A stretch of 64,000 bases of DNA from Bacteroidales bacterium (GTDB taxonomy: Bacteria; Bacteroidota; Bacteroidia; Bacteroidales; JAAUTT01), in contig JBBQTB010000011.1 of NCBI GenBank assembly GCA_038213375.1, positions 54,340 through 118,339 on the forward strand. The letters run 5' to 3'. Positions 4,856 to 23,696 of this stretch are shown here, in pieces (the stretch's first letter is position 1; the number at the start of each line of letters is the position of its first letter). A program made the position numbers and the translations under genes. Under the pieces are notes generated by a model. That model made no database searches and was not told the DNA's origin. It saw nothing but the letters and a program-made list of their open reading frames with translations.

Positions 4856-4857
4856 CC

Positions 4858-7299
4858 ATGTACCAGGAGAAAAAAGAAGTCGTACTGTTTGGTGTTGATT
4901 CAAAACTTCTGAAGCCATTTGTTCCGGAGTTAAAGATCCGCATGAACAAGGGTAAAGCCTTCGATGTGGACAAAGTCTCTTCCTCCAGGGATGTCTATGG
5001 GATTCTAAAACGGATTTATGGCCGGAATCCTATCCAGGAAAATTTTGTGATGTTGCTGTTTAACCGGGCAAACAAACTGATTGGGTATTACAAACATACT
5101 ATTGGAACAACAACAGCTACAATGGTGGATATTCCGATGATTATTGGCTTTGCCACCAAAGCCCTGGCACAAGGTGTTGTTATTTCACATAATCACCCTT
5201 CCGGAACACTTGCACCATCAGAACAAGACAAGGAGATTACCAGAACTATCACACAGGCACTAAAAACAGTTAAAATTAATCTACTCGATCATGTCATCTT
5301 CACCAATGAGGGCTACTACTCCTTTGCGGATGAAGGGGCTTTAAGCGGACTTAACAACACAGCTATGATAACAGTTGAAAACATCATTTCGGAATACACG
5401 GGTATCGACCAGGCTATTCTTCCTGATGCACTAAAAAAGGATGAATTTGAATTCATCAGGGAAAACATCGACCTGTATAATGAAGATGACACTATCAAAA
5501 AGTACATTGATACGTTCGTTGAAAAGCTTAATGAATTTGTAAACAAAGGATCGTCCAAATTAAAGCCTTCGAAAGAAAGTGATGAACCTCAAAAGTTAAA
5601 AAGTTCGGACATTCCTTCCATCGTGAAGAAATTCATGCCTAAGTTTCAGCAACAGGCAATCATTGGAAGTGAGGAACACATCGAGATAGTTAAACGACTT
5701 GAAAACGAAATCAAAGCAATCCCAAAAGATACAAGACAGGCGGATTTAGCATACCAGAAAGCGAAGGAAACCGGCAAAGCCAATTACATGGACTTTTACA
5801 TGGTATTTGCCCATTTTTTTCATGGGGCATCCGATTGGTATGTACTTTCGTGGGATGGCGATGAGATATTGTTCTGCTACGTTATTCTCAATGGCGATAC
5901 CCAAATGAGTGAAATGGGCGATGTTTCTCTCTCGGAATTGCATGAAAATCGTATTGAAATGGACTTTTTCTGGACTGTTAAACCTTTGTCCGAAGTTTTG
6001 TATAAAGCTTATCCCGATGAGTTTCCTGAGCCTGGTATGAAATCGAATATATCCAAAGAAACTAAAAAGCCCGAACCCGACGAGCAACCAAGTAAGCAAG
6101 ATAATTCCTTGTCCGTTGAAAAACTTGATCTGGAAGTGTCGTTTATTAAACGATATGTGGGATTACATGGGAAAACTAAAGAAAAGGCTCAGATCCTGAA
6201 TCTGCTAAACTCACTTCAAAAAGCCATCATCGAAAAACGAATCCGGAAGACTTCAGCTTATGCCAGCGAAATCAAAAACATCCAGCAACAGCTAATCAAG
6301 TGTTACAATCAGATGGGAAATACCATCAAAGTCTCCCTGGATGAAAACACGCTGGAAAAATACAGCCAGATTGCCCATAGTCAAAAAACGATGCTCGCTG
6401 TAACTTACATCAAGCAGTACATTGGCATACATGGTAAAAAGGATGTTAAGGATAAAGCCAAATCATTGTTAAGCCGGATAAATAAAGCTATTGAAATCGG
6501 AAAAATCCCTGAAACTTGCCCTTACTGGAACGATATTCAAGAAATCAAATCATCCCTGGAAGGCTATGTTGGAAATAAATCAAAAACACCTATAATAAGC
6601 GAAACCACATTAAATGGCATCATGTCCTGGATGGCAAGGCGACATCAAAAAAAACAGGTTGCCAAATACCTGCAAAAGATTTATGAAGCGGAAAGAGGAT
6701 TGAGGGGTGTTGAAAAGGAAGAAGAATCTACTTTAAGTATTAATCCGGAACCGGTGGTAATAACGAGTACAGAACTAGCCGGAATGAACTTCGAAACCAT
6801 TGGTTTAAAAGGTAAATACCGGAACTTAATTGGAGATCCTTCCGTCGGCTTTTCTGCAATGGTGTTTGGTTTACCTAAAAGCGGTAAATCCACTCTTTGC
6901 ATTGATTTTGCCAAATACCTGGCCGAAAATCACGGAAAGGTTTTGTATGTTGCCATTGAGGAAGGTTTCGGATATACTCTTAAAGAAAAGTTCGAACGAC
7001 TTGGTGCTTTACATCCTAACCTGGAAATTGCTGAGAAAATTCCCGATGATCTAACTACTTACCAGTTTGTTTTTATTGATTCGGTAAGCAAAGCAAATCT
7101 GACAAGCCAGGATTTAACCAAGCTTCGAAAAGACAATCCCCAAACAGCATTTATCTTCATCTTCCATACCACAAAGGAAGGTAACTTCCGAGGTAAACAG
7201 GACTTTGCACATGATGTGGACGTGATAATTGAAGTGGAGAATGGAGTTGCTAAAGCGAATGGAAGGTTTGGGATTGGAGGAAAAATTAATATATTCTAA
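4858..7299 (+). CDS. multidomain protein: RadC-like JAB domain + DUF2958-like region + tandem repeat + RecA/KaiC-like P-loop ATPase
   Basis: JAMM motif VISHNHPSGTLAPSEQD. WYVLSWDGDEILF...GDVSLSELHENRIEMDFFW resembles DUF2958 as I remember it. Duplicated module FIKRYVGLHGK / YIKQYIGIHGK. Walker A GLPKSGKST and Walker-B-like FVFIDSV near the C-terminus. Confidence 0.75.
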   Translation: MYQEKKEVVLFGVDSKLLKPFVPELKIRMNKGKAFDVDKVSSSRDVYGILKRIYGRNPIQENFVMLLFNRANKLIGYYKHTIGTTTATMVDIPMIIGFATKALAQGVVISHNHPSGTLAPSEQDKEITRTITQALKTVKINLLDHVIFTNEGYYSFADEGALSGLNNTAMITVENIISEYTGIDQAILPDALKKDEFEFIRENIDLYNEDDTIKKYIDTFVEKLNEFVNKGSSKLKPSKESDEPQKLKSSDIPSIVKKFMPKFQQQAIIGSEEHIEIVKRLENEIKAIPKDTRQADLAYQKAKETGKANYMDFYMVFAHFFHGASDWYVLSWDGDEILFCYVILNGDTQMSEMGDVSLSELHENRIEMDFFWTVKPLSEVLYKAYPDEFPEPGMKSNISKETKKPEPDEQPSKQDNSLSVEKLDLEVSFIKRYVGLHGKTKEKAQILNLLNSLQKAIIEKRIRKTSAYASEIKNIQQQLIKCYNQMGNTIKVSLDENTLEKYSQIAHSQKTMLAVTYIKQYIGIHGKKDVKDKAKSLLSRINKAIEIGKIPETCPYWNDIQEIKSSLEGYVGNKSKTPIISETTLNGIMSWMARRHQKKQVAKYLQKIYEAERGLRGVEKEEESTLSINPEPVVITSTELAGMNFETIGLKGKYRNLIGDPSVGFSAMVFGLPKSGKSTLCIDFAKYLAENHGKVLYVAIEEGFGYTLKEKFERLGALHPNLEIAEKIPDDLTTYQFVFIDSVSKANLTSQDLTKLRKDNPQTAFIFIFHTTKEGNFRGKQDFAHDVDVIIEVENGVAKANGRFGIGGKINIF

Positions 7300-9045: not shown

Positions 9046-9150
9046 AATGTTTTATATAATAATTATGAATCAAAAGTATACTGGAGGTATGCCAAAGAAC
9101 GGCACGGAATACGACCAACAATATTTTTTTATGAAATTTATTTAAAAGGA

Positions 9151-10380
9151 CTATTGAATGTTTGAGTTACAACTCAGAATTTTTACGTTTTCGAATAAAT
9201 TTTCTGCTTCTACTAAAAGACTTGTAACAAAATCAATACATTTTTCATTGTTAACTAAAGTTACATAAAGATACAAGTCAATATCATGCAACTTTTTGTT
9301 TCCCTTAAACTCAGAAGGGTTATACCAACCTAAAGACCAATCCGAGCTTTTTGTACCTGGTATAGCTTTTTTAACGCAATGGGAACATCTTTCAAATAAT
9401 TCATTTGCATGAATTTTGGTTATCAGGTTTTTTGATAATTTTTGATTTGATTCTCTTGACCAACCACACCTTAATCTATTATCTTTTTTGACTAACCTGT
9501 ATGCAAGATAAACACCAGCACTATCTTCACCTGCCTGCAACTGCACTTTCAAATCAGTATCTTTAATTTCAAATTCGAAACCTCTTTCATTTAATTGCTT
9601 TTCAAGAATTTTAAAGAAATTATCTAAAATTTCATTTTTCAGTGCTTCATACCCGGAAATGATTGCTGGGATAGAACTTAAGTACTCAGGATTTTCACAT
9701 AAAAGTTTTTTTATTTCATTTCCCATGGCATTTATGATTGACTGATTAGTTAAATATTTGATCAAATTAATATATTGATGAATAGTTTCTCTGATCATTG
9801 GAAGTGTTACTGATTCTTTCAAACATTTTTCCAGCCAGGACAAGATATCGACTGAATAGGAAATCCTTTGATATTTATTTTCTTCAAGTTCTTTCCTGCT
9901 TGATTCGCTGGCGTCTTTCCCATCGAGGGTTAAGTAAAGCAATGAAGTGTGTTGATAATTTTTCGAACCATGATTATGATAACGAAATAATTGTGCGATT
10001 TGGTCATCAGCATAGATTTTATTTTCGATAACAATGCAGTTGTTGCTGTTATCAGTTATCAGAATATCTATATTTCCTCCTTCTCTTCCATCCTCCGATA
10101 TTCTTCCTGTGAAATATTCAACAAAGGCTTCTGAATTGTCCGGATCAAAATTTTCTAGTCCAAAATGATCAAGGAATAACTTTAAATACAATGCATTTTG
10201 ACCATGTGTCCCTTTCGAGTTTAATAGTTCAGCTATAAAGGCTGAATGAAGCCTTACCTCCTTTGACTGGATTCCTAACGTTCTGAAAATATTAAAATTC
10301 TCACCTGTGGTTCTGGCTATTTGCTCATAACGCTGAGTAATTGAGGCAATTTCTAAAAATAGGTTGTGGAATTCTGGCAT
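9151..10380 (-). CDS. PD-(D/E)xK nuclease-superfamily protein (409 aa)
   Basis: EVRLHSAFIAELLNSKGTHGQ ... GNIDILITDNSNNCIVIENKIYADDQIAQLFRY gives a D...(I/V)ENK core with a flanking QL-RY motif. Full-length paralogue of the C-terminal ~400 aa of the 868-aa protein at 15991-18597. Confidence 0.65.
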   Translation of the reverse strand: MPEFHNLFLEIASITQRYEQIARTTGENFNIFRTLGIQSKEVRLHSAFIAELLNSKGTHGQNALYLKLFLDHFGLENFDPDNSEAFVEYFTGRISEDGREGGNIDILITDNSNNCIVIENKIYADDQIAQLFRYHNHGSKNYQHTSLLYLTLDGKDASESSRKELEENKYQRISYSVDILSWLEKCLKESVTLPMIRETIHQYINLIKYLTNQSIINAMGNEIKKLLCENPEYLSSIPAIISGYEALKNEILDNFFKILEKQLNERGFEFEIKDTDLKVQLQAGEDSAGVYLAYRLVKKDNRLRCGWSRESNQKLSKNLITKIHANELFERCSHCVKKAIPGTKSSDWSLGWYNPSEFKGNKKLHDIDLYLYVTLVNNEKCIDFVTSLLVEAENLFENVKILSCNSNIQ

Positions 10381-10521
10381 AATTATTTTTTTTGAATATA
10401 AATAAAAATGCTGTATTCAATTCTGCCCATACATCATTTTTAAAAATCCAAAGTTGGAAAATCTGACTGCCACGAATTGGCAGAGCCATATCTTTTATTT
10501 GCCTCAATTAAAATTTAAAAA

Positions 10522-11952
10522 ATGGATTACTTAAAACTTGCTTTAAACAATATGATTGCCTTTGGAGATACAGACATCTTACCAAGTGCTTATGAGTATA
10601 CATATTTAAAGAAAAAAGAAAAGTCACTCAATGGAGTTTTGGCCTTAATTAAAGAAATTTATGCATTTGAATTTAGTAGTTTGCCTATTACGGTTGAAAG
10701 AGATTATGGAAATTCAAGAATAGTTATGTTAATTGACCCATTATTGCATTTAGACTATTTAGCAACGGCAATAAAAATAGCTGAAAAATCGGAAAACAAA
10801 AGAGTACCAATAAATGAGAACAGGGTCCACTCTTATCGTTTTTCACCCGATCTGTTAACAGGAAAACTTTTTGACATTAAGTACGGATTTCATTCCTTCA
10901 AAGAAGCCATAAGTTTTAAAGCGGAATCGTTTAATGGTTTAGTTGTAAAAATCGATATCCGGAGTTTTTACCCATCCATTTTGCCAGAAATTATTAAAAA
11001 TGTTTTAGAAAAAAATGGAATTTGTATTACGCTCATCGAAAAGATTACAAGCCTGATAAACACAATAAATTCAGGAGTAGCAAAGGGGTTACCCATTGGC
11101 GGAAATGCTTCTCGTATACTTGCAGAGCTGGTACTAAACGAAATTGATCAGTACTTGATTTATAAAGAGATTGACTTTATTCGATTCGTTGATGATTTTG
11201 TAATTTTTGTTCCTCATGGCAAGGAGATTAAAGTGATAGATTTATTAAACGAAAAATTAAAAGAATTAAAGTTGAATATAAATTATAGCAAATTAAATAT
11301 ATACGAGTCAAGTCATTTATATTTATGGTCCGATTCTTTTTTAAGTAATATACCTTTTTACAATGATACAGATACCTTCGTGGAACCTGAGCAGGCAGAA
11401 CTATTAATAAGAGGACAAATTGAAAATATTAAAGAAGATAATTTTTTAAATTGGGGATTACTTAAATCATTAAATAAAGAAATATCCATTAACCGTGTAG
11501 CATTGCAGGTTGCTGGGGTTTTGGGCTTTTTGCACAAAGGTTTTGGCATTTATATTCAATGGGTCTTAAACCATTTTGACATCATTGATGACGAGGTATT
11601 TGATAAAATATACAGTGCTATTTCCAATTTACTAATAAATAATCATAGTGTAATTAATAATGAAATTAATAAAGCATTTGCAATTCGATTCTTAGTTAAA
11701 CTTGAAAAACCTCAAACAGTTATATTACTTGATGAATTATATCAACAAAATGAAAACAATGAGTTAGTTAAGTTAAATATTATTCATGTATTTGCACGTT
11801 GGCAAAAAATGGATTGGCTCCAAAAGAACATAAAAGATATCAGGAATTTGAATCTGTGGCAAAGAAGAGCTTTATTGATGAATCTCAAAAACCGGAATTC
11901 AATTTTTCCTGAAACAGAATTAACTCCATTGGAAATACTCCTTTGGAGTTAA
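10522..11952 (+). CDS. reverse transcriptase, UG/Abi-like (defence-associated type), 476 aa
   Basis: RT motifs in order: VVKIDIRSFYPSI (motif A Asp), GLPIGGNASRILAELVLNEID (B), IRFVDDFVIFV (C, xxDD), LKLNINYSKLNI (D/E). N-terminal FGDTDILP. The C-terminal ~200 aa are helical-repeat-like. No maturase, endonuclease or RNase H module. Confidence 0.8.
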   Translation: MDYLKLALNNMIAFGDTDILPSAYEYTYLKKKEKSLNGVLALIKEIYAFEFSSLPITVERDYGNSRIVMLIDPLLHLDYLATAIKIAEKSENKRVPINENRVHSYRFSPDLLTGKLFDIKYGFHSFKEAISFKAESFNGLVVKIDIRSFYPSILPEIIKNVLEKNGICITLIEKITSLINTINSGVAKGLPIGGNASRILAELVLNEIDQYLIYKEIDFIRFVDDFVIFVPHGKEIKVIDLLNEKLKELKLNINYSKLNIYESSHLYLWSDSFLSNIPFYNDTDTFVEPEQAELLIRGQIENIKEDNFLNWGLLKSLNKEISINRVALQVAGVLGFLHKGFGIYIQWVLNHFDIIDDEVFDKIYSAISNLLINNHSVINNEINKAFAIRFLVKLEKPQTVILLDELYQQNENNELVKLNIIHVFARWQKMDWLQKNIKDIRNLNLWQRRALLMNLKNRNSIFPETELTPLEILLWS

Positions 11953-12394: not shown

Positions 12395-13913
12395 TGTATA
12401 AGTCCTAATAACTATGGCGTATTAAATGATTGTAAATTAGTTTTATCACTCTATTTTTGGTAAAAATTAAATAGATGACCAGCGAACAAAAACAAATCAT
12501 AGAATTAACCGATAAAGTTGATAAACTTGAATTGCTTGTGCGTATTTTATTAAAAGAAAATGAGTCTATTAAAGTTCTTGAAGCAAAGGTTAAGTCCTTG
12601 GAATTTGAGGTAACGACCTTAAAAGAAGAAAATGAACTTTTAAGACATTCCAAAAACAGTACCAATAGCTCCATTCCACCCTCAAAGGACGAAAATCGTC
12701 CGTTCAAAACCAAAAGTCTGCGTACTTCTGACGGGAAGAAACCTGGCGGCCAAAAAGGTCACCCAGGGAGTACATTAAAAATGGTTGAAAACCCTGATGT
12801 TATCATTGAACATAAACCATCCTCATGTATAAATTGTGGGCTCAGTTTGGAAGGTTCAGCCAGCGAATTACTCGCTCGAAAACAAATCGTTGACATTCCA
12901 CCAATAGTACCTCAATATACAGAACATCGCATATTTAAAAGCATTTGCACCTGTGGGGCACATACAATGTCTTTCTTTCCGGCTGGAGTGAATGCTCCCA
13001 TCAGTTATGGTCCAAATGTAGAGGCTATCATTGCTTATTCTCATGCTTTTCAATATATTCCTGTGCAAAGAATGAGTGAACAATTTTCCAATATCTTTAA
13101 CCTTCCCATCAGTTGCGGTGCCATCTGCGATATTCTGGACCGGTTTGCCAAAAAAGCGAAACCTACCTATTTGCAGATTGCTAAAAACTTAGAAAATAGC
13201 ACGGTCGTTGGTGCAGATGAAACGGGTGCTAAAGTCAACGGTAAATTGGGTTGGTTCTGGACCTGGCAAAATCATTTGGCCACCTTTATTGCATTTTCAT
13301 CTAATCGGGGATTTGCGACCATCAAGGAAAACTTTGCCCAAGGATTTCATAAGGCTATCCTGGTTCATGATTGTTGGAAAAGCCATTTTGACACCAATGT
13401 TAAATCTCATCAAATCTGTATCGCCCATTTACTTCGTGAGCTCAACTATTTAGAAGAGATACATTATAATGATTGGCCCACCAAGTTTAAGCAGTTGTTA
13501 TATGATGCCCTCGACCTTAAAAGATCATTAACTCCGTTACAATACACGGATAAAGTAATTCAAAGAACTCAACTGGAAGAAAGACTGATCAAACTATTGG
13601 AATCAGATATTCCAGTAAAACTGAAGGATATTCGAACCTTCCAAAAACGACTTGTCAAGTATAAAAACTACATATTCCCCTTTCTTTATTATGCTGATGT
13701 TCCACCAGACAATAATGGTTCGGAAAGGGCTATACGTAATGTCAAAGTAAAGTTAAAGGTTTCCGGCCAATTTAAAACCAGCATCGGCGCTCAATCCTAT
13801 GCTATCATTCGATCGATAATTGATACGTGTATTAAAACCGATCAGAATATTTTACTTACCTTTCGTGATATTGCGCTGGCGCAACCTGAATAGTTACTGA
13901 AATTGATGTTTTA
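12395..13913 (+). mobile_element. IS66-family insertion sequence, single-ORF (ISBst12-like) type; ends approximate
   Basis: A transposase gene fills the element. Only weak terminal similarity was seen around a shared TAACTAT core. No target duplication was found, so the boundaries are uncertain by tens of bp. Confidence 0.45.
12475..13893 (+). CDS. IS66-family transposase
   Basis: N-terminal leucine-zipper/coiled coil followed by NSTNSSIPPSKDE; CINCG zinc-finger-like motif; VVGADETGAKVNG; CIAHLLRE; PPDNNGSERAIRNVK. These are the characteristic IS66 TnpC signatures. Confidence 0.9.
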   Translation: MTSEQKQIIELTDKVDKLELLVRILLKENESIKVLEAKVKSLEFEVTTLKEENELLRHSKNSTNSSIPPSKDENRPFKTKSLRTSDGKKPGGQKGHPGSTLKMVENPDVIIEHKPSSCINCGLSLEGSASELLARKQIVDIPPIVPQYTEHRIFKSICTCGAHTMSFFPAGVNAPISYGPNVEAIIAYSHAFQYIPVQRMSEQFSNIFNLPISCGAICDILDRFAKKAKPTYLQIAKNLENSTVVGADETGAKVNGKLGWFWTWQNHLATFIAFSSNRGFATIKENFAQGFHKAILVHDCWKSHFDTNVKSHQICIAHLLRELNYLEEIHYNDWPTKFKQLLYDALDLKRSLTPLQYTDKVIQRTQLEERLIKLLESDIPVKLKDIRTFQKRLVKYKNYIFPFLYYADVPPDNNGSERAIRNVKVKLKVSGQFKTSIGAQSYAIIRSIIDTCIKTDQNILLTFRDIALAQPE

Positions 13914-14811
13914 GAGGGTGATCTTCGAAATGTTGGTATTCATTATGATTGTCGTGTACTAACCCTTTTAAAACTACATCTATACTTTCTTTTTTACTAA
14001 AATGCCACAGAAGAGGAATAAAACTAAAAAAAGGATTCCCTAACATTTCCTCAATATCTCCATACTTTTTTTCGGAAAATAGGGATACTTCAAATTCAAT
14101 TTCATAATCGGATATAAAAGTATCAGCAGATTCAATTTCTTTCAGAACATACTTTTCGAACTTTTCAGCTTTTAAGTAGGCTAGGTGCGACTTTAGTGCT
14201 ACTATTTTATTGATGGCTTCAATACGATTAATATTTTGCTCATTGAAGATAAAATACTTATTTAAGCTGTGTTTCCGCTCACCTAATTGATAAGTCTTAT
14301 TATGGTGCCAGGAAACCCATGATTTAGATAATTCATTATCTAGAAATAATTTATTTAAATACGAAAGTTGATTATAGGAAGTTGCCAATTTCCAGATGGT
14401 ATAACAAGACTCTTTAACTTCGTGTTCTTCAATGTACCTGTAGGACTCCCGTAAATGAATTCGCAGTCCGCTCTCCCCGAAAGCATGGTTGTTATAGTTA
14501 CGATGTGCATTTGAAGCAGTATCGGTAATTATTGAAGCACCAGCCTGCAATACAAGATCAATTTCAGCCAATGTTTTATAAAAATTGATTCTTGTTCCGT
14601 ATCCTCCGCCATTTATTGAAACAAAAACTAAATCATCAGGTGCATAAATTCCACAATTTACCGGAATGTTCTGCTTAGAGGCGTCAATCCCATACTGTTC
14701 AGTTGCCCTTCCTTTCCCTGTTACTGAAAAACCAATAAATTTGGTAGCGATATATGCTTTACTTTGATCTTTTAGTGTATGCTTGTTTTTATAAGTCAGA
14801 AGAAATCCCAT
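13894..14811 (-). CDS. hypothetical protein (305 aa); N-terminal Rossmann-like region with LOG/SLOG-like glycine loops; 3' end runs into IS66
   Basis: GFSVTGKGRATEQYG ... DDLVFVSINGGGYGTRINFYKTLAE resembles the GGGxGT loop of LOG/SLOG domains. Its stop codon (13894-13896) directly abuts the IS66 transposase stop (13891-13893), so its last codons are probably IS-derived. Confidence 0.4.
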   Translation of the reverse strand: MGFLLTYKNKHTLKDQSKAYIATKFIGFSVTGKGRATEQYGIDASKQNIPVNCGIYAPDDLVFVSINGGGYGTRINFYKTLAEIDLVLQAGASIITDTASNAHRNYNNHAFGESGLRIHLRESYRYIEEHEVKESCYTIWKLATSYNQLSYLNKLFLDNELSKSWVSWHHNKTYQLGERKHSLNKYFIFNEQNINRIEAINKIVALKSHLAYLKAEKFEKYVLKEIESADTFISDYEIEFEVSLFSEKKYGDIEEMLGNPFFSFIPLLWHFSKKESIDVVLKGLVHDNHNEYQHFEDHPLKHQFQ

Positions 14812-14845: not shown

Positions 14846-15934
14846 TTAGATGTTTTCATCAACAAAATGATTGAACAATGTTTGAGCCCCTGCATAATCC
14901 GGCGGCTTAACAAATTCAGTTACCATTCGCTCTTGCATTACTTGACCGAGAGTTGTTCCGCAAATAGGAGCATCAAGAAAAGTATTATACCCTTTAATGT
15001 TTTTTTTATTTACATTTCTTCGGAATGTAATGGCTGTTTCCATATCTAGTCCGGTAGCAAGCCTGAAAATATTCTCGAGTTGATAGGGATAGGCAATCCA
15101 CCCACCTGATTCGGCAAGCAGTACATCCAACAATGGGTGCTTTTCACCCTTAAACCTTAAAATTGGAATTTTTAAATCCCGAAAATGAGTTACCAGAACA
15201 GTTAAAAGTGTAAAATCAGTCCTGGGAATGCCTGAAAGATGTTCCAAAAAAGAAACAGGTAGTGTAAACGCTCCGACGAAATTGGATACAAACGAAAACA
15301 AACACTTCGGATTTTCTCCAGTTGTATGGACCAGGTATACCCAGGTATCATCATCATTCAGCAATGAGTTTGATTCTTCAAATGAAGGTAGAAGTCTGGC
15401 AAGCTCCTTGTTGCTTTTAAGCATAAAAGATGTTTCTTCCAACTTCAAATGGTTTACAGTCTTTAAGTTATTAACCAAATCCAGTAATGCCAGTTTGAAT
15501 TTTCTGTAAGGGGTGTTGATAAAAAAATAAATGGATTGACCTTTACAGATCACACAATACTCCAAACGAAGCTTGATAATTTTTAAAACTAGTTCTGGAT
15601 TTGAAAGATCAAGGATATTATCATGCAAATAAGTCTCGAAAGTCCGTATATGTGCTGCGTACTCAAAATCCTGCAACTGCACGGAAGCTTTTTTTTCATC
15701 TGCTAACACCATGGCTACATCTATATGTTTATCAACAAACCATTTCTCAGGTAAGGAAACACTATTGATTTCATTAGCTTCAATATCACCCTTTAAAGTA
15801 TCAATAAAGCCAAACCGGAATCCTTTTTGATGCAATTCTTCCAGTTTGGATTTTAATTCGGGCAATTCAGGTTGTGCAAGAAAAACCTGAAAGCTATGAT
15901 GTAATAATTTTTCTAAAGCATTTTCGACATTCAT
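14846..15934 (-). CDS. hypothetical protein (362 aa)
   Basis: ORF in an operon (34- and 56-bp gaps). Ordered motif string NDDD ... RTDFTLLTVL ... AYPYQLENIFRLATGLDMETAITFRRNVNKKN is reminiscent of C-family polymerase palm/finger motifs (see findings). No confident family call. Confidence 0.5.
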   Translation of the reverse strand: MNVENALEKLLHHSFQVFLAQPELPELKSKLEELHQKGFRFGFIDTLKGDIEANEINSVSLPEKWFVDKHIDVAMVLADEKKASVQLQDFEYAAHIRTFETYLHDNILDLSNPELVLKIIKLRLEYCVICKGQSIYFFINTPYRKFKLALLDLVNNLKTVNHLKLEETSFMLKSNKELARLLPSFEESNSLLNDDDTWVYLVHTTGENPKCLFSFVSNFVGAFTLPVSFLEHLSGIPRTDFTLLTVLVTHFRDLKIPILRFKGEKHPLLDVLLAESGGWIAYPYQLENIFRLATGLDMETAITFRRNVNKKNIKGYNTFLDAPICGTTLGQVMQERMVTEFVKPPDYAGAQTLFNHFVDENI

Positions 15935-15990: not shown

Positions 15991-18597
15991 TTATTTCAGG
16001 TAATCTGTGGGTAAATTTAAATAATTGCAAAAACCTTTTATCTTCTCTTTAGATTCGTTAAGAATAGAATCAATAATTTTTTCTAATTCATGGTCTCCCA
16101 CGATCTTAAAAACTAAATCGTTTTCAAAATTTAGTTCATTAAAAGCTATGTTTAATAATTTATTTGTTTCTGGAAATTCTTGAAATTGTGGTCGTTCCCA
16201 TCTAATCCAGTCTTTGGAGATTTTTGAAATTTTGGACTCTTGAGCAGCTTTGGTATACTTTGCTAAATCTTTATCCGTGCAATCATGAACACTCCCATTA
16301 ATGTATTTAAATCCAAAGTATATGTTATTAAAGGATTCAATTGCAAATACAACTTTTTCGTTTTCGTTAATTTTTTCTAATAGAATTTCTATTCGGGGAT
16401 ACTCATTTTTTCTTTCCCATTTATTTTGTGAAATATTATCCCATGTCACATTAAATTTTTCTTCGGCCTTTTTCTTAAGCACTACCCAAAAATTCTTCTG
16501 AATATTTCTTTTAAAAGATTCAAAATAAGTAGCTATTAGGGTAGCTGCTTTGAAGTTCTTTTCATCAGAGGCAACCAAAGATTGGATTTCATTTAAAAAT
16601 ACCGAACTCATACTTTTCCCTGTAATTTGTTTAATCGTTTTTGTATAATGTATTATAATCTGTTTTATCTGAGGATATTCATAGCAGGATACGGCACACT
16701 TTTCCAACCAATTAAGGATGTGAGTCACATATGAAATTTGATAATATTCAATATTCTTACATTTTTCGTCTCTTGATTCAGTACCAGTCAACGTAAGAAA
16801 TAGTAAGGTTTTTGACCTACACCCATTATAATTTGAATACCTTATTAATTGGTTCTCTCCTTCTTTTGCAAATACTTTGTTTTCAATAATAATTGAATGA
16901 TTATTACTATCTGTTATAATTATGTCTAAAAAGCCGCCTTTTGTTTCAGTTTTAATTCCAATAAATTTTTCAGTCTCTACACGGGCTGATGTGGTTATAA
17001 ATTTTAAAAGGTCAATTTCAGGAGGTAAACTGGAAATAAAATGCTTCAGGAAAACATCCTTCATTTGGTGTGTTCCATAAGGATTTAGTAGCTCGGCAAT
17101 GAAGCGCGAATGTAAATGAACTTCATCTGTGGTTAAATCTAATATTTCGAAAATATTAAAACCTTCTTTTTTTTCTTCTTTCTCTTTGTTATAGCTATCT
17201 AACTTAACTTCAATTTTTTCAAGAAAATCTACACTTGCCAATTTACTCGTTTTTTGTTCCAATACTTCTAATATTTTAACCATGGCCAAAGTATCCAATT
17301 TGCAATAGGCCAGTAAATCATTTCGTGTTTTTTTTATAATAGCTATATCTTTCTCGTACATTAGAGTGTAGTAGGTATTGCTGGCAATACCTCCATTGTT
17401 TATCTCAAGATCTTTGTAAGTTAACTCAGGACATAAAGAGGGCAATACTTTTTTAATAGAATAGCTTCCCTGCATATAGTCGCATGTATAATGCTTGCGT
17501 CTGAAAACAGGCATTAAATCTACAAGTCTGTCAATTATATCTTGAATTTCATTCTCATACTTAGGGAAATCACGCTTAATTTCCTTAAGCCGTGTTTTCT
17601 CGAAGGTAACATTGTACACTATAATCTGTCCGGGCAGTGGGGTATCTTTAATTAATTGTTGAATAAGTTCTTCACGAGGATCTTCTGTTGCATTTCCTAA
17701 ATACTCGAAGTGCTGTAAATCGGAATTCTTTGAAGATTTAAAGTGCAAGCTGTACTGGAAAGTAATTTGCTGATAGGGATGAGACTCGTTAAAGATCGGA
17801 ACACCTGGCATTATTGTTTCGAAATCCAGAAAGTATAAGGGATACGATAATGAATCTAAAAACTCTTTAACACCACTATGGTTGATTATTGGAGTGCGAC
17901 TCAGGGATTCAGGATCAAATTCTATTGAAGGAGGCTGAAGACTTAAGCAATAATTTCGGAAATCACATTCGTATGGCCTATTGCAGTGTTCGCCAATACT
18001 AATTTCCGGTTCAATATCAGAAGCAAGTATAACTAAAAATTCTTCAATCTTATCGCTGATACCAAGTTGCATGGGCAGAAAACGGTCAAGCACACTTTCT
18101 GTGCAAAAAAGCTCCTGAATGTTCAGGTCACCTTTTCGAACATATTGGTTGTTTAAAAACATCACTGATGCATCACTAAGATCAACACCACAGTTGGTTA
18201 CGATATAGTACTGAATAGCAGTATCAATAATATGAGCTTCTTTAACGTGGGTAGTACTCTTCATCTCAAAAAGCTGCCAGCGGCCATCCTTTCTGGAGAG
18301 AATATCAACAGCAACCAAAGTATTTTGGTAAATAAAAGTAGCTTCATAAATTGTTTCGATGCCACTTTCAATAAGATGGGCAGTGCGTTTGGCAGATTCA
18401 ATTCCGGGTATTTCGTTTTCACCAACAGCCAATATCCCATTTGGAAAATATTGCCTTGCCAATACACCAATATCCGTTCCTTGATTAAAAATTGACAATG
18501 AAGCATCATCAACAAACCTTTGATCACTTTTATGAGTATTTAGCCATAACGACTTTTGGCATTTTACACCTCTGACATATTTCGATTTTGATAGCAT
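15991..18597 (-). CDS. three-nuclease-domain fusion: DUF2779-like (Cas4-type PD-(D/E)xK + DEDD-like exonuclease) + C-terminal PD-(D/E)xK module
   Basis: N-terminal part: C13 plus CNRPYECDFRNYC (4-Cys Cas4-type cluster) and VAVDIL...LFEMKS. Middle part: YFLDFETIMPG, VYNVTFEKTRL and AYCKLDTLAM (exonuclease-like motifs I-III). C-terminal part: EVHLHSRFIAELLNPYGTHQ ... GFLDIIITDSNNHSIIIENKVFAKEGENQLIRY. Confidence 0.65.
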   Translation of the reverse strand: MLSKSKYVRGVKCQKSLWLNTHKSDQRFVDDASLSIFNQGTDIGVLARQYFPNGILAVGENEIPGIESAKRTAHLIESGIETIYEATFIYQNTLVAVDILSRKDGRWQLFEMKSTTHVKEAHIIDTAIQYYIVTNCGVDLSDASVMFLNNQYVRKGDLNIQELFCTESVLDRFLPMQLGISDKIEEFLVILASDIEPEISIGEHCNRPYECDFRNYCLSLQPPSIEFDPESLSRTPIINHSGVKEFLDSLSYPLYFLDFETIMPGVPIFNESHPYQQITFQYSLHFKSSKNSDLQHFEYLGNATEDPREELIQQLIKDTPLPGQIIVYNVTFEKTRLKEIKRDFPKYENEIQDIIDRLVDLMPVFRRKHYTCDYMQGSYSIKKVLPSLCPELTYKDLEINNGGIASNTYYTLMYEKDIAIIKKTRNDLLAYCKLDTLAMVKILEVLEQKTSKLASVDFLEKIEVKLDSYNKEKEEKKEGFNIFEILDLTTDEVHLHSRFIAELLNPYGTHQMKDVFLKHFISSLPPEIDLLKFITTSARVETEKFIGIKTETKGGFLDIIITDSNNHSIIIENKVFAKEGENQLIRYSNYNGCRSKTLLFLTLTGTESRDEKCKNIEYYQISYVTHILNWLEKCAVSCYEYPQIKQIIIHYTKTIKQITGKSMSSVFLNEIQSLVASDEKNFKAATLIATYFESFKRNIQKNFWVVLKKKAEEKFNVTWDNISQNKWERKNEYPRIEILLEKINENEKVVFAIESFNNIYFGFKYINGSVHDCTDKDLAKYTKAAQESKISKISKDWIRWERPQFQEFPETNKLLNIAFNELNFENDLVFKIVGDHELEKIIDSILNESKEKIKGFCNYLNLPTDYLK

Positions 18598-18653: not shown

Positions 18654-18983
18654 TCATTCGTATTTTAATTCGATATTTTCAAGAGCACTTAATGACTCCT
18701 TTTCTAACTGACTGATAGTGTCAAATTGCCTCTTAAGTTTCTCTATTTCAGATTGAGATACATTTTTCAAAAGCATAGCTACATCGACAGACTCAGCATA
18801 AGCAGTTATGAGCTTTCTTAATTTTTCAAAGTTTTTCACCAGCTTCTTTTGGTCCGCTTCATCAATGGTGTTCCGGGGATATAATAATTTTACCCTTTTA
18901 ATTAGTTCTGTCATCAGATTCGCTTCATCCTGAGTATAAATTAATTCATCCTTACCCTGAATGTGTTTTAAAATATTTTCCAT
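18654..18983 (-). CDS. hypothetical small coiled-coil protein (109 aa)
   Basis: Begins 8 bp after the WYL gene stop. Charged heptad-like sequence. No motif recognised. Confidence 0.5.
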   Translation of the reverse strand: MENILKHIQGKDELIYTQDEANLMTELIKRVKLLYPRNTIDEADQKKLVKNFEKLRKLITAYAESVDVAMLLKNVSQSEIEKLKRQFDTISQLEKESLSALENIELKYE

Positions 18984-18991
18984 TTCTAATA

Positions 18992-19894
18992 TTATTTATA
19001 TTGATTCAAAGTTGATTCAAGATTCTCGATAATAACCGTTCTTAAACTTTCAGGAGCAATAACTTTCAATTCATTTCCATGAGAAAGTAATTCCATCAGA
19101 AAATCATAAGTTATTTGCAGCTTTAGCTTAATCCGTAATTCATTTTCATTATCAACTATAATACTCTGAGAACGGTGTAGAGGTTGTGTTTTTATGAACT
19201 TTCCTTTTAAAGGCTGAAACGAGAGCTCTATATCTTCCGCCTTTTCATCAGATAATTTAAAAATGCCATATGAGTCTTTGAAGAAACTTTCCGGAGTTAG
19301 ATTCGGTGGTGTATCATAACTGGCCGATGCAGAAACAGGGACAGGGTCGTTAACGATTCGTTCCAATGCGTATATTTTAATCTGATTCTTCTCCTTACCA
19401 ATAACATACCATCTATTTTTATATTCCTTAACAAAATATGGTTCAATTATTCTTGTCAGAGGTGTTTCATTAACATACTTCTGATATGTAAACTCAATTC
19501 TTTTTCGGTTTTGGATAGCATCCAGCATTAATAATAAATGATTACTTCCACTTTTTCTGGGCTCTGACGCAATATAACTTTCAGCTTCTTTGAATATATG
19601 ATGTAAATTGATGTAGCGATAAGAGTCCATCAATAAGGTTGTATTTGAAGGAGTAAGCTCTTCGTCAATGAAGTAACCTTTGTGCTGGGTACTATACTTG
19701 ATTTCAACACCAAATAGATCGGTTATTTCACTTTTATCACGAATAAATGTTCGTTTTGAGAATCCGGCTTCAATGTCATCTCTAAATTCCGACTTAAAAA
19801 ATTTTTCCTCAATTTCATCATAGGAGATGTATGGCTTGTTTTTTATTAAGTCGTACAACCATAAGTAACGCTTGAAAAATGCTCGTTTTGACAT
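18992..19894 (-). CDS. WYL-domain transcriptional regulator (BrxR/CapW-like architecture)
   Basis: N-terminal wHTH-like region, then IEFTYQKY...IEPYFVKEYKNRWYVIGKEK (WYL core) and a C-terminal extension. I prefer the ATG at 19892-19894 (MSKRAFFKRY...) over the listed start at 19948. Confidence 0.75.
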   Translation of the reverse strand: MSKRAFFKRYLWLYDLIKNKPYISYDEIEEKFFKSEFRDDIEAGFSKRTFIRDKSEITDLFGVEIKYSTQHKGYFIDEELTPSNTTLLMDSYRYINLHHIFKEAESYIASEPRKSGSNHLLLMLDAIQNRKRIEFTYQKYVNETPLTRIIEPYFVKEYKNRWYVIGKEKNQIKIYALERIVNDPVPVSASASYDTPPNLTPESFFKDSYGIFKLSDEKAEDIELSFQPLKGKFIKTQPLHRSQSIIVDNENELRIKLKLQITYDFLMELLSHGNELKVIAPESLRTVIIENLESTLNQYK

Positions 19895-19916
19895 GTTCTT
19901 TATTTTTATTGCACAA

Positions 19917-19963
19917 AGTAAAACTTTGCCTACGCCAAAGAATGGCACAATTAAAGTTTTACT
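19917..19963. promoter_or_regulatory. inverted repeat upstream of the WYL1 gene (candidate operator)
   Basis: AGTAAAACTTT (19917-19927) and AAAGTTTTACT (19953-19963) are perfect 11-bp inverted repeats. They lie 23-69 bp upstream of the preferred start codon. Confidence 0.4.
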
Positions 19964-19980
19964 TCATTTTTCACAAATTA

Positions 19981-22054: not shown

Positions 22055-23089
22055 ATGCCAAGTAATAAAAATGCACTGCTTCGTTATAAAATTCTTGACA
22101 AATTATTCAGATTAGCAGCTAATAAAAATAATTTTAGAGGTTTTACTTTAAAGGAATTAAAGGGCGAAATAAGGGAATCATTAAGTTATGATATAAGTGA
22201 GGAATCCATTAAAAAGGATATACAATTCCTAAGAAATGAGGGTAAACTGCCCATAACAAAAAGAACAGGTTTTTATAAATATGAGGATTCTTCCTGTTCC
22301 TTCTTTTATCCGCCCTTAAATGAAAGGCACTTAAGAGCACTTGAGTTTGCCGGAAGTATGCTGAAACGTTATAAAAATGCAGAAATATTCAAGGATGTTT
22401 GTGAAGCTATTGATATAATCAACAAGTCTTATCATCGTGATAGCGAAAATAACACCCAGAATGTTGATTTCGAGCAAAGAATAATTGACAGAGGTATTAA
22501 GCATGTACTGACCATTAATGATGCGATTAGAGATTTAAAACAGATAAGGTTTACTTATTTCAAGCTTTACAGTAAAGAAGGAACAATAAGAACGCTAAAT
22601 CCTCTCTTATTGAAAGAATCTTCGGAAATGTGGTATGTTATAGGAAGAGAGCCAGGAAAAAAGATTGACAGGGTATTTGCTCTTGATAGAATTCAGGAGC
22701 TGGAAATTCTGGAACAGGACAGTACTTATGGAACACCTTTGCCCGTTGATTATTTTAATAATGTATTTGGAATATCTATACCTGAAAAACAAGCCTTACC
22801 TGAAGAAATAATACTTTCTTTTAAAAGTTCCGATGCGGAAATTGTTAAGACTAAACCAATACATCCCACACAGCAAGTTATTTACGATGATGGAAGTGAA
22901 ATCAGGGTAAAAATAATGGTGTATTATGAAAAGGAAATCTCAATAGAACTTAAGCGGGAATTGTTAAAGTGGGGCGATAGTGTTGAGATAATCCATCCCG
23001 AAAGATTAAGAAAAGACTTAGTGAAAGCCTGGAAAGCTGCAATTAAGAAAAATGAAAGTTTTAGTAAACCTGGAAAGGAAAATAACTAG
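22055..23089 (+). CDS. WYL-domain transcriptional regulator (second copy)
   Basis: IRFTYFKLYSKEGTIRTLNPLLLKESSEMWYVIGREPGKK aligns with the WYL core of the 18992-19894 protein. Has an N-terminal wHTH-like region. Confidence 0.75.
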   Translation: MPSNKNALLRYKILDKLFRLAANKNNFRGFTLKELKGEIRESLSYDISEESIKKDIQFLRNEGKLPITKRTGFYKYEDSSCSFFYPPLNERHLRALEFAGSMLKRYKNAEIFKDVCEAIDIINKSYHRDSENNTQNVDFEQRIIDRGIKHVLTINDAIRDLKQIRFTYFKLYSKEGTIRTLNPLLLKESSEMWYVIGREPGKKIDRVFALDRIQELEILEQDSTYGTPLPVDYFNNVFGISIPEKQALPEEIILSFKSSDAEIVKTKPIHPTQQVIYDDGSEIRVKIMVYYEKEISIELKRELLKWGDSVEIIHPERLRKDLVKAWKAAIKKNESFSKPGKENN

Positions 23090-23093
23090 TCAC

Positions 23094-23696
23094 ATGGGAA
23101 CATCGCTTTGCCCTATTGGTAACCACAAAATTGAGTTTAAGGATAAAATATATGAAGTCCTTGCCAATGAAATTAAAGAAAAGCTGGATGGGATAATATT
23201 TGAAAACGCAGCTTTCTTCAAAGAAGTGGCTTTGAAAGAAAATAGCCATCATCCGGATTCTATTTTCCGAATCAATGAAAAAAATGTATGGACATTTTTT
23301 CCGGAGGATGAATATTACAATTTTGCTGAGGACAAGTTCCTGACCTTCGATGGTCCTTTTGAGCTGCATTTATGGATGGATGCTTATACCCTGATGTTTT
23401 TTGACCCTTCCTCCAGGTATTGGGAGTGGTTGGAAATGACTGATGAAGATCGCTTTGAATGGCGGAAGTATTATTATCAGGTACTCCTAACTTTGGGCGG
23501 TGATAGGGTAATTTACCTGGCAGATAATTCTCATCCGCTTGATGGATTTAATTACCTGGAAATTCCTTTTGAGGAAATTGAGCTAAAATTGACCGAGGCG
23601 TTTGGTGAACCGAAGAAAACTTTTGAAGAAGTGGCCAGTAATTATAAAACAGCGTTTTATGTAGATCGGTTTGAAGATTTCAAAGAAGCTGATTGA
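23094..23696 (+). CDS. hypothetical acidic protein (~200 aa)
   Basis: The ATG at 23094 lies 4 nt after the WYL2 stop, and I prefer it over the listed overlapping start at 23052. No motif recognised. Confidence 0.45.
   Translation: MGTSLCPIGNHKIEFKDKIYEVLANEIKEKLDGIIFENAAFFKEVALKENSHHPDSIFRINEKNVWTFFPEDEYYNFAEDKFLTFDGPFELHLWMDAYTLMFFDPSSRYWEWLEMTDEDRFEWRKYYYQVLLTLGGDRVIYLADNSHPLDGFNYLEIPFEEIELKLTEAFGEPKKTFEEVASNYKTAFYVDRFEDFKEAD

What the first reader, a model, noticed from the sequence alone, without database searches (positions are those of the whole stretch)
15991..18597. 868-aa protein fuses three different nuclease-type modules
Reading the translation, three modules follow one another. 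(1) A Cas4/RecB-like PD-(D/E)xK module with a 4-Cys pattern: C13 plus CNRPYECDFRNYC. (2) A DEDD/RNase-H-fold-like exonuclease signature: YFLDFET, VYNVTFEKTRL, YCKLDTLAM. (3) After a lysine/glutamate linker, a second PD-(D/E)xK module: LDIIITD...IIIENKVF...QLIRY. The first two together resemble what I remember as DUF2779. The extra C-terminal nuclease module appears elsewhere in the window as a free-standing gene. Such a fusion is unusual and suggests a processive DNA-destroying effector.
Basis: partly seen in the sequence, partly recalled or inferred. Interest (0 to 1): 0.6.

Follow-up and report, generated by a model that had tools for sequence, protein, structure and literature searches.

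The report
Rare three-nuclease defence-island fusion protein
One 868-residue bacterial protein joins, end to end, two complete uncharacterised nucleases (a Cas4-like/DEDD-exonuclease "DUF2779" protein and a candidate anti-phage nuclease "PDC-S26") that elsewhere are separate neighbouring genes, which suggests the two work together, probably to cut and then degrade invading DNA.

Summary
ORF 15991-18597 (-) encodes 868 aa with three nuclease modules. Residues 1-451 are a complete DUF2779 protein: a Cas4-like PD-(D/E)xK domain with four conserved Cys, plus a DEDDy 3'-5' exonuclease. Residues 452-868 are a complete PDC-S26 protein: a PDDEXK_4 nuclease core plus a variable C-terminal domain. All catalytic residues are conserved.

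The junction is exact, and the "K/E linker" belongs to PDC-S26. The fusion is very rare: 2 of 13,761 relatives among 1.84 billion representative proteins. The second is the sister lineage, carrying a different PDC-S26-type module.

The same two proteins occur as adjacent separate genes in a Bacteroidota metagenome contig and on Arcobacteraceae plasmids. There, 5 of 31 DUF2779 plasmids carry both genes, always adjacent (chance expectation 0.007), often with a WYL regulator.

In the window the gene lies in a defence island. It sits downstream of a WYL-WCX regulator that is orthologous to the one preceding the closest free-standing PDC-S26.

Best reading (confidence about 0.5): a WYL-controlled "cut-and-chew" DNA-degrading defence effector. 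"Processive" is unsupported, since no motor domain is present. No activity was tested, and both families are uncharacterised. Verdict: a new variant of known kinds, of moderate interest.

The parts
15991..18597 (-). Whole fusion gene, 868 aa (DUF2779::PDC-S26)
   Evidence: ORF; Pfam; PADLOC; both HMMs hit this single ORF
17923..18597 (-). Module 1, aa ~1-225: Cas4/RecB-like PD-(D/E)xK nuclease with a four-Cys (Fe-S type) pattern. Residues: C13, C205, C211, C217; D98, E111, K113; Q129, Y130.
   Evidence: Invariant residues. Model pLDDT 96. Foldseek best hits are Cas4 4r5q (E 1.6e-4), Dna2, Cas4 8d3l, MGME1 and AddAB. Homologues carry PF01930 hits.
17245..17886 (-). Module 2, aa ~238-451: DEDDy-type RNase H-fold 3'-5' exonuclease (the Pfam DUF2779 region). 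Residues: D258, E260, N329/E333, Y431, D435.
   Evidence: Pfam PF11074 E 4e-41. Invariant residues. RNase H-like structural hits. Placed in the 3'-5' exonuclease clade in PMC3985635. Described as DEDD with tyrosine in PMC13621843.
17164..17244 (-). aa 452-478: start of the PDC-S26 part (its own N-terminal helix, including KEKEEKKE). The fusion junction is at aa ~451/452.
   Evidence: Junction alignment with P0122, P0121 and the C-termini of DUF2779 proteins
16639..17160 (-). Module 3, aa 480-653: PDDEXK_4 nuclease core with a RecB-type QxxxY motif. Residues: E543, D558, E572, K574, Q583, Y587, plus conserved H496 and H510.
   Evidence: Pfam PF14281 E 1.7e-31. Invariant residues. Model pLDDT above 90 in this region. 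Only weak structural matches, all of them PD-(D/E)xK nucleases.
15994..16620 (-). aa 660-868: helical segment plus an alpha/beta C-terminal domain of PDC-S26. It is poorly conserved across the family and is a candidate specificity or sensor domain.
   Evidence: Top-residue frequency is 0.25-0.36 here against 0.57-0.64 in the nuclease core. Secondary structure. No structural match.
18992..19948 (-). WYL-WCX transcriptional regulator, two genes upstream and co-directional. The probable true start is the ATG at 19894.
   Evidence: Pfam WYL E 2.3e-13 and WCX E 2e-7. It is 60% identical to the WYL gene that directly precedes P0122 in L002. Closest solved chains are 7p5x_AY and 9fnd_X, 'Transcriptional regulator-like protein', E 2.4e-6.
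18654..18983 (-). 109-aa ORF between the WYL gene and the fusion gene. Function unknown and membership uncertain.
   Evidence: ORF. No Pfam, PHROG or NCBIfam hit. No homologue in any fetched locus.
19916..19964 (-). Candidate operator. A perfect 12-bp inverted repeat (19916-19927 / 19953-19964) encloses GCCATTCTTTGGC (19934-19946), about 40 nt upstream of the WYL ATG.
   Evidence: The same motif, GCCATCCTTTGGC, lies upstream of the orthologous WYL gene in L002.
9151..10380 (-). Free-standing PDC-S26 paralogue (409 aa) in the same island
   Evidence: PDDEXK_4 E 3.9e-37 and PDC-S26 E 1.3e-98. 36% identity to the C-terminal half.
14846..15934 (-). 362-aa ORF 56 bp downstream, co-directional. It is an orphan, and it is unknown whether it belongs to the system.
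   Evidence: Only itself was found in 5.8 billion clusters. No family hit.

Best explanation
The gene encodes a single-chain multi-nuclease. It arose by exact end-to-end fusion of two adjacent, co-transcribed genes: a DUF2779 nuclease and a PDC-S26 nuclease. It is expressed under a WYL-WCX regulator as part of a defence island.

Proposed mechanism (inferred, not shown):
1. The WYL regulator keeps the operon repressed until infection or DNA damage produces its ligand. Characterised WYL regulators (PafBC, DriD) bind single-stranded DNA.
2. The PDC-S26 part, guided by its variable C-terminal domain, makes the first cut in foreign DNA.
3. The tethered DUF2779 part resects the new ends with both polarities. 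By family analogy, the Cas4-like Fe-S domain acts on 5' ends or ssDNA and the DEDDy domain acts 3'-5'. The break then cannot be re-ligated or repaired ("cut and chew").

Shown here: the domain identities, conservation of the catalytic residues, the exact junction, the rarity of the fusion, recurrence of the split gene pair, the linkage to WYL, and the island context.

Inferred: all enzymatic activities, the substrate, the order of action, and the anti-phage role.
For: - Domain identities and intact active sites in all three modules.
- Exact junction of two complete proteins.
- Split versions exist. In L003, DUF2779 is followed 45 bp later by PDC-S26 (E 2.5e-78). On the A. butzleri plasmid the order is PDC-S26, then DUF2779 with one base between the genes, then WYL. 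The Arcobacter p82 plasmid has PDC-S26 then DUF2779.
- Among 72,556 plasmids, 31 carry DUF2779, 16 carry PDC-S26-like genes, and 5 carry both, always adjacent. The chance expectation is 0.007.
- The only other fusion, P0002, is sister to the query in the N-terminal half (95 of 100 bootstraps) but carries a divergent PDC-S26-type module. The linkage was therefore kept or re-made.
- The WYL gene is 60% identical to the one preceding the closest free-standing PDC-S26 (56% identical). WYL-like genes occur in 21 of 81 PDC-S26 loci and about 10 of 83 DUF2779 loci.
- The island holds DRT8, a second PDC-S26, an SNF2 helicase, RadC-AAA and type I R-M subunits.
- Elsewhere DUF2779 sits next to other defence nucleases or systems: GmrSD, a NucC-like nuclease, PDC-S06 and Qat.
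- Both families are rare in phage genomes.
Against: - No activity of DUF2779, PDDEXK_4 or PDC-S26 has been measured in the literature available to me. PDC-S26 is only a candidate defence family.
- The association is patchy. None of the 80 closest genome DUF2779 loci has PDC-S26 within 6 kb, and only 1 of 81 PDC-S26 loci has a DUF2779 gene, 5 kb away.
- Many DUF2779 genes lie in housekeeping or repair-like contexts: RNase III, a Y-family polymerase, a UvrA-like protein, and a quasi-essential gene in a minimal Mycoplasma.
- On Arcobacteraceae plasmids DUF2779 may be a fixed gene at a defence hotspot, so adjacency there could be positional rather than functional.
- The QxxxY motif places PDDEXK_4 nearer to RecB-like exonucleases, so "PDC-S26 makes the first cut" is a guess.
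- The operon structure is not established. The promoter and terminator scans were no better than shuffled sequence.
Confidence: 0.5

Rival explanations
1. DNA-damage or repair enzyme rather than immunity. A WYL (PafBC/DriD-like) regulator induces the nuclease after DNA damage, and the three modules process broken or aberrant host DNA ends, like a helicase-less AddAB/Dna2-type end processor.
For: - The closest structural relatives of module 1 include the repair nucleases Dna2, MGME1 and AddAB.
- DUF2779 relatives lie next to a Y-family polymerase, a UvrA-like ATPase and RmuC.
- DUF2779 is quasi-essential in JCVI-syn3.0.
- The WYL-WCX regulator's closest solved relatives are 7p5x_AY and 9fnd_X. 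I recall 7p5x as a PafBC complex, and PafBC controls a DNA-damage regulon; both points are from my own knowledge, not tool results.
Against: - The location is a mobile, low-GC island with DRT8, R-M, IS elements and a second PDC-S26.
- PDC-S26 is catalogued as enriched in defence islands (PADLOC models).
- The split pairs lie on plasmids next to Gabija-like, R-M and Qat genes.
- The variable C-terminal domain of PDC-S26 is typical of arms-race proteins.
Confidence: 0.2
2. Fortuitous fusion. Two independent neighbouring island genes merged through a small deletion or indel. Each half works as it did before, and the fusion adds nothing.
For: - It is extremely rare: 2 of 13,761 relatives.
- PDC-S26 also turns up fused in frame to unrelated pieces (a DnaB_C fragment, a UvrD fragment, UPF0227, a membrane segment). 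This suggests promiscuous recombination at its N-terminus.
- No conserved neighbour was found for DUF2779 in 80 genomes.
Against: - The same two families are adjacent in at least three further independent lineages and two phyla, in both gene orders.
- The sister lineage P0002 also carries a fusion, at only about 60% identity in the N-terminal half, so the fused state has persisted or recurred.
- All catalytic residues of all modules are retained.
Confidence: 0.22
3. Artefact. An assembly chimera or a sequencing error removed a stop codon between two genes.
For: The protein is seen on a single contig only, with one cluster member. An exact look-up of its encoding contig returned nothing.
Against: - The junction is in frame, with no translated spacer, and maps precisely from the last DUF2779 residue to the first PDC-S26 residue.
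- The sequence is held by two sources, NCBI and Logan.
- An independent sample (SRR14117738) has the sister fusion as a complete ORF.
- No composition break occurs at the junction.
Confidence: 0.03

Closest known systems
DUF2779 (Pfam PF11074) proteins, e.g. MMSYN1_0389 of JCVI-syn3.0; RNase H-like family F.17
   Same: Residues 1-451 are a full-length member, with a Cas4-like PD-(D/E)xK domain plus a DEDDy exonuclease domain. It is 43-56% identical to hundreds of free-standing ~450-490-aa proteins.
   Different: Typical members are stand-alone. This one lacks a ~40-aa insert between the two domains that most members have. It keeps all four Cys, whereas the Mycoplasma protein has only two. It carries a 417-aa C-terminal addition. 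The family itself has no measured activity.
PADLOC candidate defence system PDC-S26 (PDDEXK_4, Pfam PF14281)
   Same: Residues 452-868 match the whole model (E 5.5e-87). The closest relative, P0122, is 56% identical over 96% of the length, and the WYL gene upstream is orthologous.
   Different: PDC-S26 is defined as a single ~400-aa gene, but here it forms the C-terminal half of a larger protein. No published validation of PDC-S26 as a defence system was found.
CRISPR-associated Cas4 and other Cas4-family accessory nucleases (e.g. Argonaute-associated ACE1)
   Same: Same fold, PD-(D/E)xK motif and four-Cys pattern, with best structural hits to Cas4 4r5q and 8d3l. ACE1 is a precedent for a Cas4-family enzyme that acts together with a defence effector (abstract of PMC12094033).
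   Different: No cas genes or CRISPR array are in the window. The domain is fused to a DEDDy exonuclease. Sequence similarity to Cas4 models is marginal, and the query itself gave no PF01930 hit.
WYL-regulated defence operons (BrxR-BREX, CapW-CBASS) and the PafBC/DriD damage regulons (from my own knowledge)
   Same: A WYL-WCX regulator lies directly upstream and co-directional, with a palindromic motif before its start that is conserved in the orthologous locus.
   Different: The regulated cargo is a multi-nuclease, not BREX or CBASS. Neither the ligand nor the direction of regulation (repressor or activator) is known.
Shedu (SduA) and other stand-alone PD-(D/E)xK defence nucleases
   Same: A PD-(D/E)xK nuclease core with a divergent accessory domain, in a single-gene defence logic. 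There is a weak structural hit to SduA 8ps5.
   Different: The match is not significant (E 0.28). It belongs to a different Pfam family (DUF4263 against PDDEXK_4). No membership is claimed.

Membership tests
DUF2779 (PF11074) | Pfam model match above the gathering threshold | tested here: met
   140.6 bits against a cutoff of 23.3, E 4e-41, model positions 1-126 of 126
DUF2779 (PF11074) | N-terminal Cas4/DUF83-like PD-(D/E)xK domain preceding the RNase H-like domain | tested here: met
   D98, E111 and K113 conserved. Foldseek hits to Cas4, Dna2 and MGME1. This architecture is described in PMC3985635 and PMC13621843.
DEDD (DEDDy) 3'-5' exonucleases | Four acidic residues in the ExoI-III motifs, plus Tyr (or His) four to five residues before the last Asp | tested here: met
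   D258, E260, E333, D435 and Y431 are invariant in 79 sequences. The third acidic residue is Glu rather than Asp. Exonuclease activity itself was not testable.
Cas4 (CRISPR adaptation nuclease) | PD-(D/E)xK motif plus four Cys coordinating an Fe-S cluster | tested here: met
   C205, C211 and C217 are invariant and C13 is at 90% or more. Presence of the cluster itself is not testable here.
Cas4 (CRISPR adaptation nuclease) | Encoded with cas1/cas2 or next to a CRISPR array | tested here: not met
   No CRISPR-like repeat array. No cas genes among the annotated neighbours. It is therefore a solo Cas4-family domain, not a Cas4.
PDDEXK_4 (PF14281) | Pfam model match above threshold, with the catalytic D...(D/E)xK | tested here: met
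   110.1 bits against a cutoff of 22.3, model positions 1-183 of 183. D558, E572 and K574 are invariant.
PADLOC PDC-S26 | Full-length match to a PDC-S26 HMM | tested here: met
   PDLC04983 at E 5.5e-87, model positions 9-405 of 413
PADLOC PDC-S26 | Stand-alone single-gene system of about 400 aa | tested here: not met
   Here it is the C-terminal 417 aa of an 868-aa protein. Among 81 genes matching the PDC-S26 profile in the survey, 71 are 350-449 aa.
PADLOC PDC-S26 | Confers anti-phage defence | not testable with these tools
   It is only a candidate family. No validation was found.
Helicase-nuclease end processors (AddAB, RecBCD, Dna2) | SF1/SF2 helicase motor coupled to a RecB-type nuclease | tested here: not met
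   No helicase or ATPase domain was found by Pfam or in the models. Only the nuclease domains resemble these enzymes.
Shedu (SduA, DUF4263) | Significant sequence or structure match to SduA | tested here: not met
   Foldseek E 0.28 to 8ps5_A. No PADLOC Shedu hit.

The most novel reading that the evidence does not exclude
DUF2779 is a portable, Cas4-like end-resection accessory that plugs into many different defence nucleases (PDC-S26, NucC-like, GmrSD, Qat). Together with PDC-S26 and a WYL regulator it forms a so-far unrecognised multi-nuclease immune system. The ssDNA or oligonucleotides it releases might be the ligand that the WYL regulator senses, which would give a self-amplifying induction loop. 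If so, the 868-aa fusion is the link that reveals the function of a widespread orphan family, one that includes a quasi-essential gene of the minimal Mycoplasma genome.
Probability: 0.25. Interest if true: 0.7.

Novelty: new variant of a known kind. Interest (0 to 1): 0.52.

Why it matters
Both halves belong to large families with no measured function. DUF2779 has thousands of members, including a quasi-essential gene in JCVI-syn3.0, and PDC-S26 is a frequent but unvalidated candidate defence gene. A natural fusion, together with recurring split gene pairs in two phyla, is the classic sign that two proteins act in the same process. That turns two separate unknowns into one testable hypothesis: an endonuclease paired with a dual-polarity exonuclease under WYL control. 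The evidence also suggests that Cas4-family end processors serve immune systems beyond CRISPR and Argonaute. Finally, the work supplies precise catalytic residues, a clean split point (residue 451/452) and a candidate operator for experiments.

Tried and rejected
- **Sequence and profile searches against PDB:** nothing meaningful for either half.
- **Contig look-up:** an exact look-up for the query protein returned nothing, and the window's genome was not among the GTDB hits. The organism is therefore not identified. Relatives point to Bacteroidota or Ignavibacteriota.
- **Locus search:** alignment A2 was too diverse for pattern-based searching, so the tighter A1 was used instead.
- **Transcription signals:** the sigma-70 promoter and terminator scan was no better than shuffled sequence, so the operon limits are unresolved.
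- **Flanking ORFs (109, 362, 305, 350 and 204 aa):** no family hits and no homologues in any of the fetched loci. The 362-aa ORF is an orphan, so these could not be assigned to the system.
- **136-aa ORF after the sister fusion P0002:** it is not the missing C-terminal domain of PDC-S26.
- **Conserved DUF2779 neighbour:** rejected, since no neighbour cluster exceeds 7 of 82 loci.
- **Pairing confined to the short-form DUF2779 clade:** rejected, because the Arcobacteraceae partners are long-form.
- **First bootstrap script:** it timed out and was redone with faster distances.
Full report
**1. Observation**

The ORF is real: 15991..18597 on the minus strand, ATG start, 868 aa.

Pfam assigns DUF2779 to residues 255-380 (E 4e-41) and PDDEXK_4 to 480-653 (E 1.7e-31). 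PADLOC matches residues 454-855 to the full length of its candidate defence family PDC-S26 (E 5.5e-87). A free-standing paralogue of the C-terminal part lies at 9151..10380 (-). It is a PDDEXK_4 / PDC-S26 protein (E 1e-98) that is 36% identical over 244 aa.

**2. Anatomy**

*N-terminal half (1-451).* In an alignment of 79 diverse relatives the invariant residues are D98, K113, D125, Q129, C205, C211, C217, D258, E260, E333, Y431 and D435. C13 and E111 are conserved at 90% or more. That gives a PD-(D/E)xK site with a Cas4-type four-cysteine pattern, followed by a DEDD site of the tyrosine subtype.

The AlphaFold model is very confident (pLDDT 96.4). Its best matches to solved structures are Cas4 (4r5q and 8d3l), Dna2, MGME1 and AddAB for the first domain, and RNase H-like folds for the second. 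This two-domain composition of DUF2779 has been described before, without any experimental function (PMC3985635; PMC13621843).

The query and its nearest relatives lack a ~40-residue insert between the two domains that most family members have.

*C-terminal half (452-868).* In 71 relatives the invariant residues are E492, H496, H510, E543, D558, E572, K574, Q583, R586 and Y587. This is a complete PD-(D/E)xK site followed by the QxxxY motif that I associate with RecB-like nucleases (my own knowledge).

The model (pLDDT 87) has three parts: the nuclease core, a helical segment, and an alpha/beta C-terminal domain. The core is well conserved, with a top-residue frequency of about 0.6. The last ~200 residues are not, at about 0.25, as expected for a specificity or sensor domain.

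No solved structure matches significantly. The weak hits are all PD-(D/E)xK nucleases: Bax1, Shedu SduA, Card1, NucS and McrC. Profile searches against PDB sequences found nothing. The function of PDDEXK_4 was listed as unknown in the 2012 superfamily survey.

*Junction.* Free-standing DUF2779 proteins end at query residue ~450-453. Residue 1 of the closest free-standing PDC-S26 (P0122) aligns to ~452. Two complete proteins are therefore joined with no linker and no loss. The K/E-rich stretch at 471-478 is part of PDC-S26 itself.

**3. How rare is the fusion?**

An exhaustive HMMER scan of 1.84 billion representative proteins found 13,761 relatives. Only the query and one other protein, P0002, match on both halves. 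The word-indexed search of 5.8 billion clusters agrees. The best 120 relatives of the C-terminal half are all free-standing, ~400 aa.

P0002 (655 aa, a complete ORF in an independent sample) is the sister of the query in the N-terminal half (95 of 100 bootstraps). Its C-terminal module shares only the catalytic core with the query's and hits PDC-S26 models weakly, at E 1e-8. The linkage to a PDDEXK_4-type nuclease has therefore been kept or re-made while the module itself changed.

**4. Split versions**

- **L003 (metagenome contig).** A DUF2779 gene 50% identical to the N-terminal half is followed, after 45 bp on the same strand, by a 405-aa PDC-S26 gene (E 2.5e-78). The contig is a defence island with CBASS and type I R-M genes.
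- **Aliarcobacter butzleri plasmid.** The order is a DnaB_C-domain gene, PDC-S26, DUF2779 (one base between the two genes), then a WYL gene, all next to an OLD-family endonuclease/UvrD pair.
- **A second Arcobacter plasmid lineage.** PDC-S26 is followed by DUF2779.
- **A third record.** It has the first arrangement, with PDC-S26 disrupted by a transposase.

Across 72,556 plasmids, 31 carry DUF2779, 16 carry a PDC-S26-like gene and 5 carry both. The two genes are adjacent in every one of the 5, while independent placement would give 0.007 co-occurrences. These 5 records represent only two independent lineages.

The association is nevertheless patchy. None of the 80 closest DUF2779 loci from species-representative genomes has PDC-S26 within 6 kb. 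Only 1 of 81 PDC-S26 loci holds a DUF2779 gene, 5 kb away with a GmrSD nuclease between them.

**5. Context and regulation**

The fusion gene is the fifth of seven co-directional genes with short gaps. Upstream are a WYL-WCX regulator (18992-19948) and a 109-aa ORF. Downstream are two ORFs with no recognisable family, and one of them is an orphan in 5.8 billion clusters.

The WYL protein is 60% identical to the WYL gene that directly precedes P0122 in L002, and P0122 is itself 56% identical to the C-terminal half. WYL followed by PDC-S26 therefore looks like the older module, with the DUF2779 part joined to the nuclease's N-terminus later.

WYL-like genes are present in 21 of 81 PDC-S26 loci, mostly immediately adjacent, and near DUF2779 in about 10 of 83 loci.

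A perfect 12-bp inverted repeat enclosing GCCATTCTTTGGC lies about 40 nt before the probable WYL start. GCCATCCTTTGGC lies at the equivalent place in L002.

The surrounding ~32 kb is a defence island:
- SNF2 helicase and RadC-AAA
- the second PDC-S26, divergent from a DRT8 reverse transcriptase
- IS66 and IS3 transposases
- a second WYL gene
- type I R-M subunits

No CRISPR array is present.

**6. Wider pattern for DUF2779**

In defence-rich regions DUF2779 sits directly beside other nucleases or systems:
- GmrSD
- a NucC-like PD-(D/E)xK nuclease plus PDC-S06
- QatABCD
- SbcC/AAA clusters and a dGTPase

Many other DUF2779 genes are in ordinary or repair-like neighbourhoods. PDC-S26 also occurs fused to unrelated N-terminal pieces: UPF0227 hydrolase, DnaB_C or UvrD fragments, and a membrane segment.

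**7. Mechanism**

Best-supported reading, confidence about 0.5: a WYL-controlled defence effector. PDC-S26 supplies target engagement and the first cut. The tethered DUF2779 part then degrades the ends with both polarities, making the damage irreparable.

The enzymology, the substrate and the order of events are inferred from family resemblance only. "Processive" is not supported, because no motor domain exists.

Rivals:
- a damage-inducible repair nuclease (0.2)
- a fortuitous, functionally neutral fusion (0.22)
- an assembly artefact (0.03)

**8. Novelty**

Both component families are catalogued but uncharacterised. In the literature I could search, I found no description of this fusion or of a DUF2779-PDC-S26-WYL association.

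I rate it a new variant of known kinds. Interest is moderate, mainly because it provides a fusion-based link for two orphan nuclease families.

Noticed in passing
window 19916-19964 and 9091-9103; L002 1506-1518: A near-palindromic motif, GCCAT[T/C]CTTTGGC, lies upstream of the WYL gene in the window (inside a perfect 12-bp inverted repeat) and upstream of the orthologous WYL gene in L002. A copy with one mismatch lies between the free-standing PDC-S26 gene and the 569-aa ORF. There are 2 matches in the window against 0.12 expected by chance. It could be a WYL operator.
   Followed up: partly
window 14846-15934 (-): The 362-aa ORF directly downstream of the fusion gene has no relative other than itself in 5.8 billion protein clusters and no family hit. 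It is either a true orphan gene or not a gene at all.
   Followed up: partly
window 12475-13893 (+) and 13894-14811 (-): The IS66-family transposase ORF ends at 13893, the base before the stop codon of the convergent 305-aa ORF. The insertion sequence may have inserted into, and truncated, the last gene of the cluster.
   Followed up: no
window 9151-11952: The free-standing PDC-S26 gene is divergently paired, with a 141-bp gap, with a DRT8-type defence reverse transcriptase (PADLOC Drt8, E 1e-80). No Rfam RNA was found nearby.
   Followed up: no
window 22055-23696 (+): A second WYL-WCX regulator gene lies about 0.4 kb upstream of the seven-gene cluster and is transcribed divergently from it. 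It overlaps a 214-aa ORF with a weak Npun_R2821/R2822-family hit and may control another small system.
   Followed up: no
L174-L177, L172 (Arcobacteraceae plasmids): DUF2779 is packed, with gaps of 1-14 bp or overlaps, at the end of very different defence clusters: QatABCD, PDC-S06 with a NucC-like nuclease, and SbcC/AAA clusters next to a dGTPase. It is either a general accessory gene or a fixed gene at a defence hotspot.
   Followed up: partly
L117 302-5002, L155 1493-3388, L164 1120-2721: Human-gut and other metagenome contigs encode PDC-S26 fused in frame to UPF0227 hydrolase, DnaB_C or UvrD-N fragments, or a membrane segment. A small DnaB_C gene also precedes PDC-S26 on the A. butzleri plasmid, and a UPF0227 gene follows DUF2779 in L005.
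   Followed up: partly
window 1013-7299 (+): A 1280-aa SNF2/ResIII helicase gene is followed by an 813-aa protein with an N-terminal RadC-like JAB domain and a C-terminal AAA ATPase. This is an unusual pair at the edge of the island.
   Followed up: no
window 41001-41099: A short tandem repeat with a 22/45-nt period and 2-4 copies. It is unrelated to the finding.
   Followed up: no
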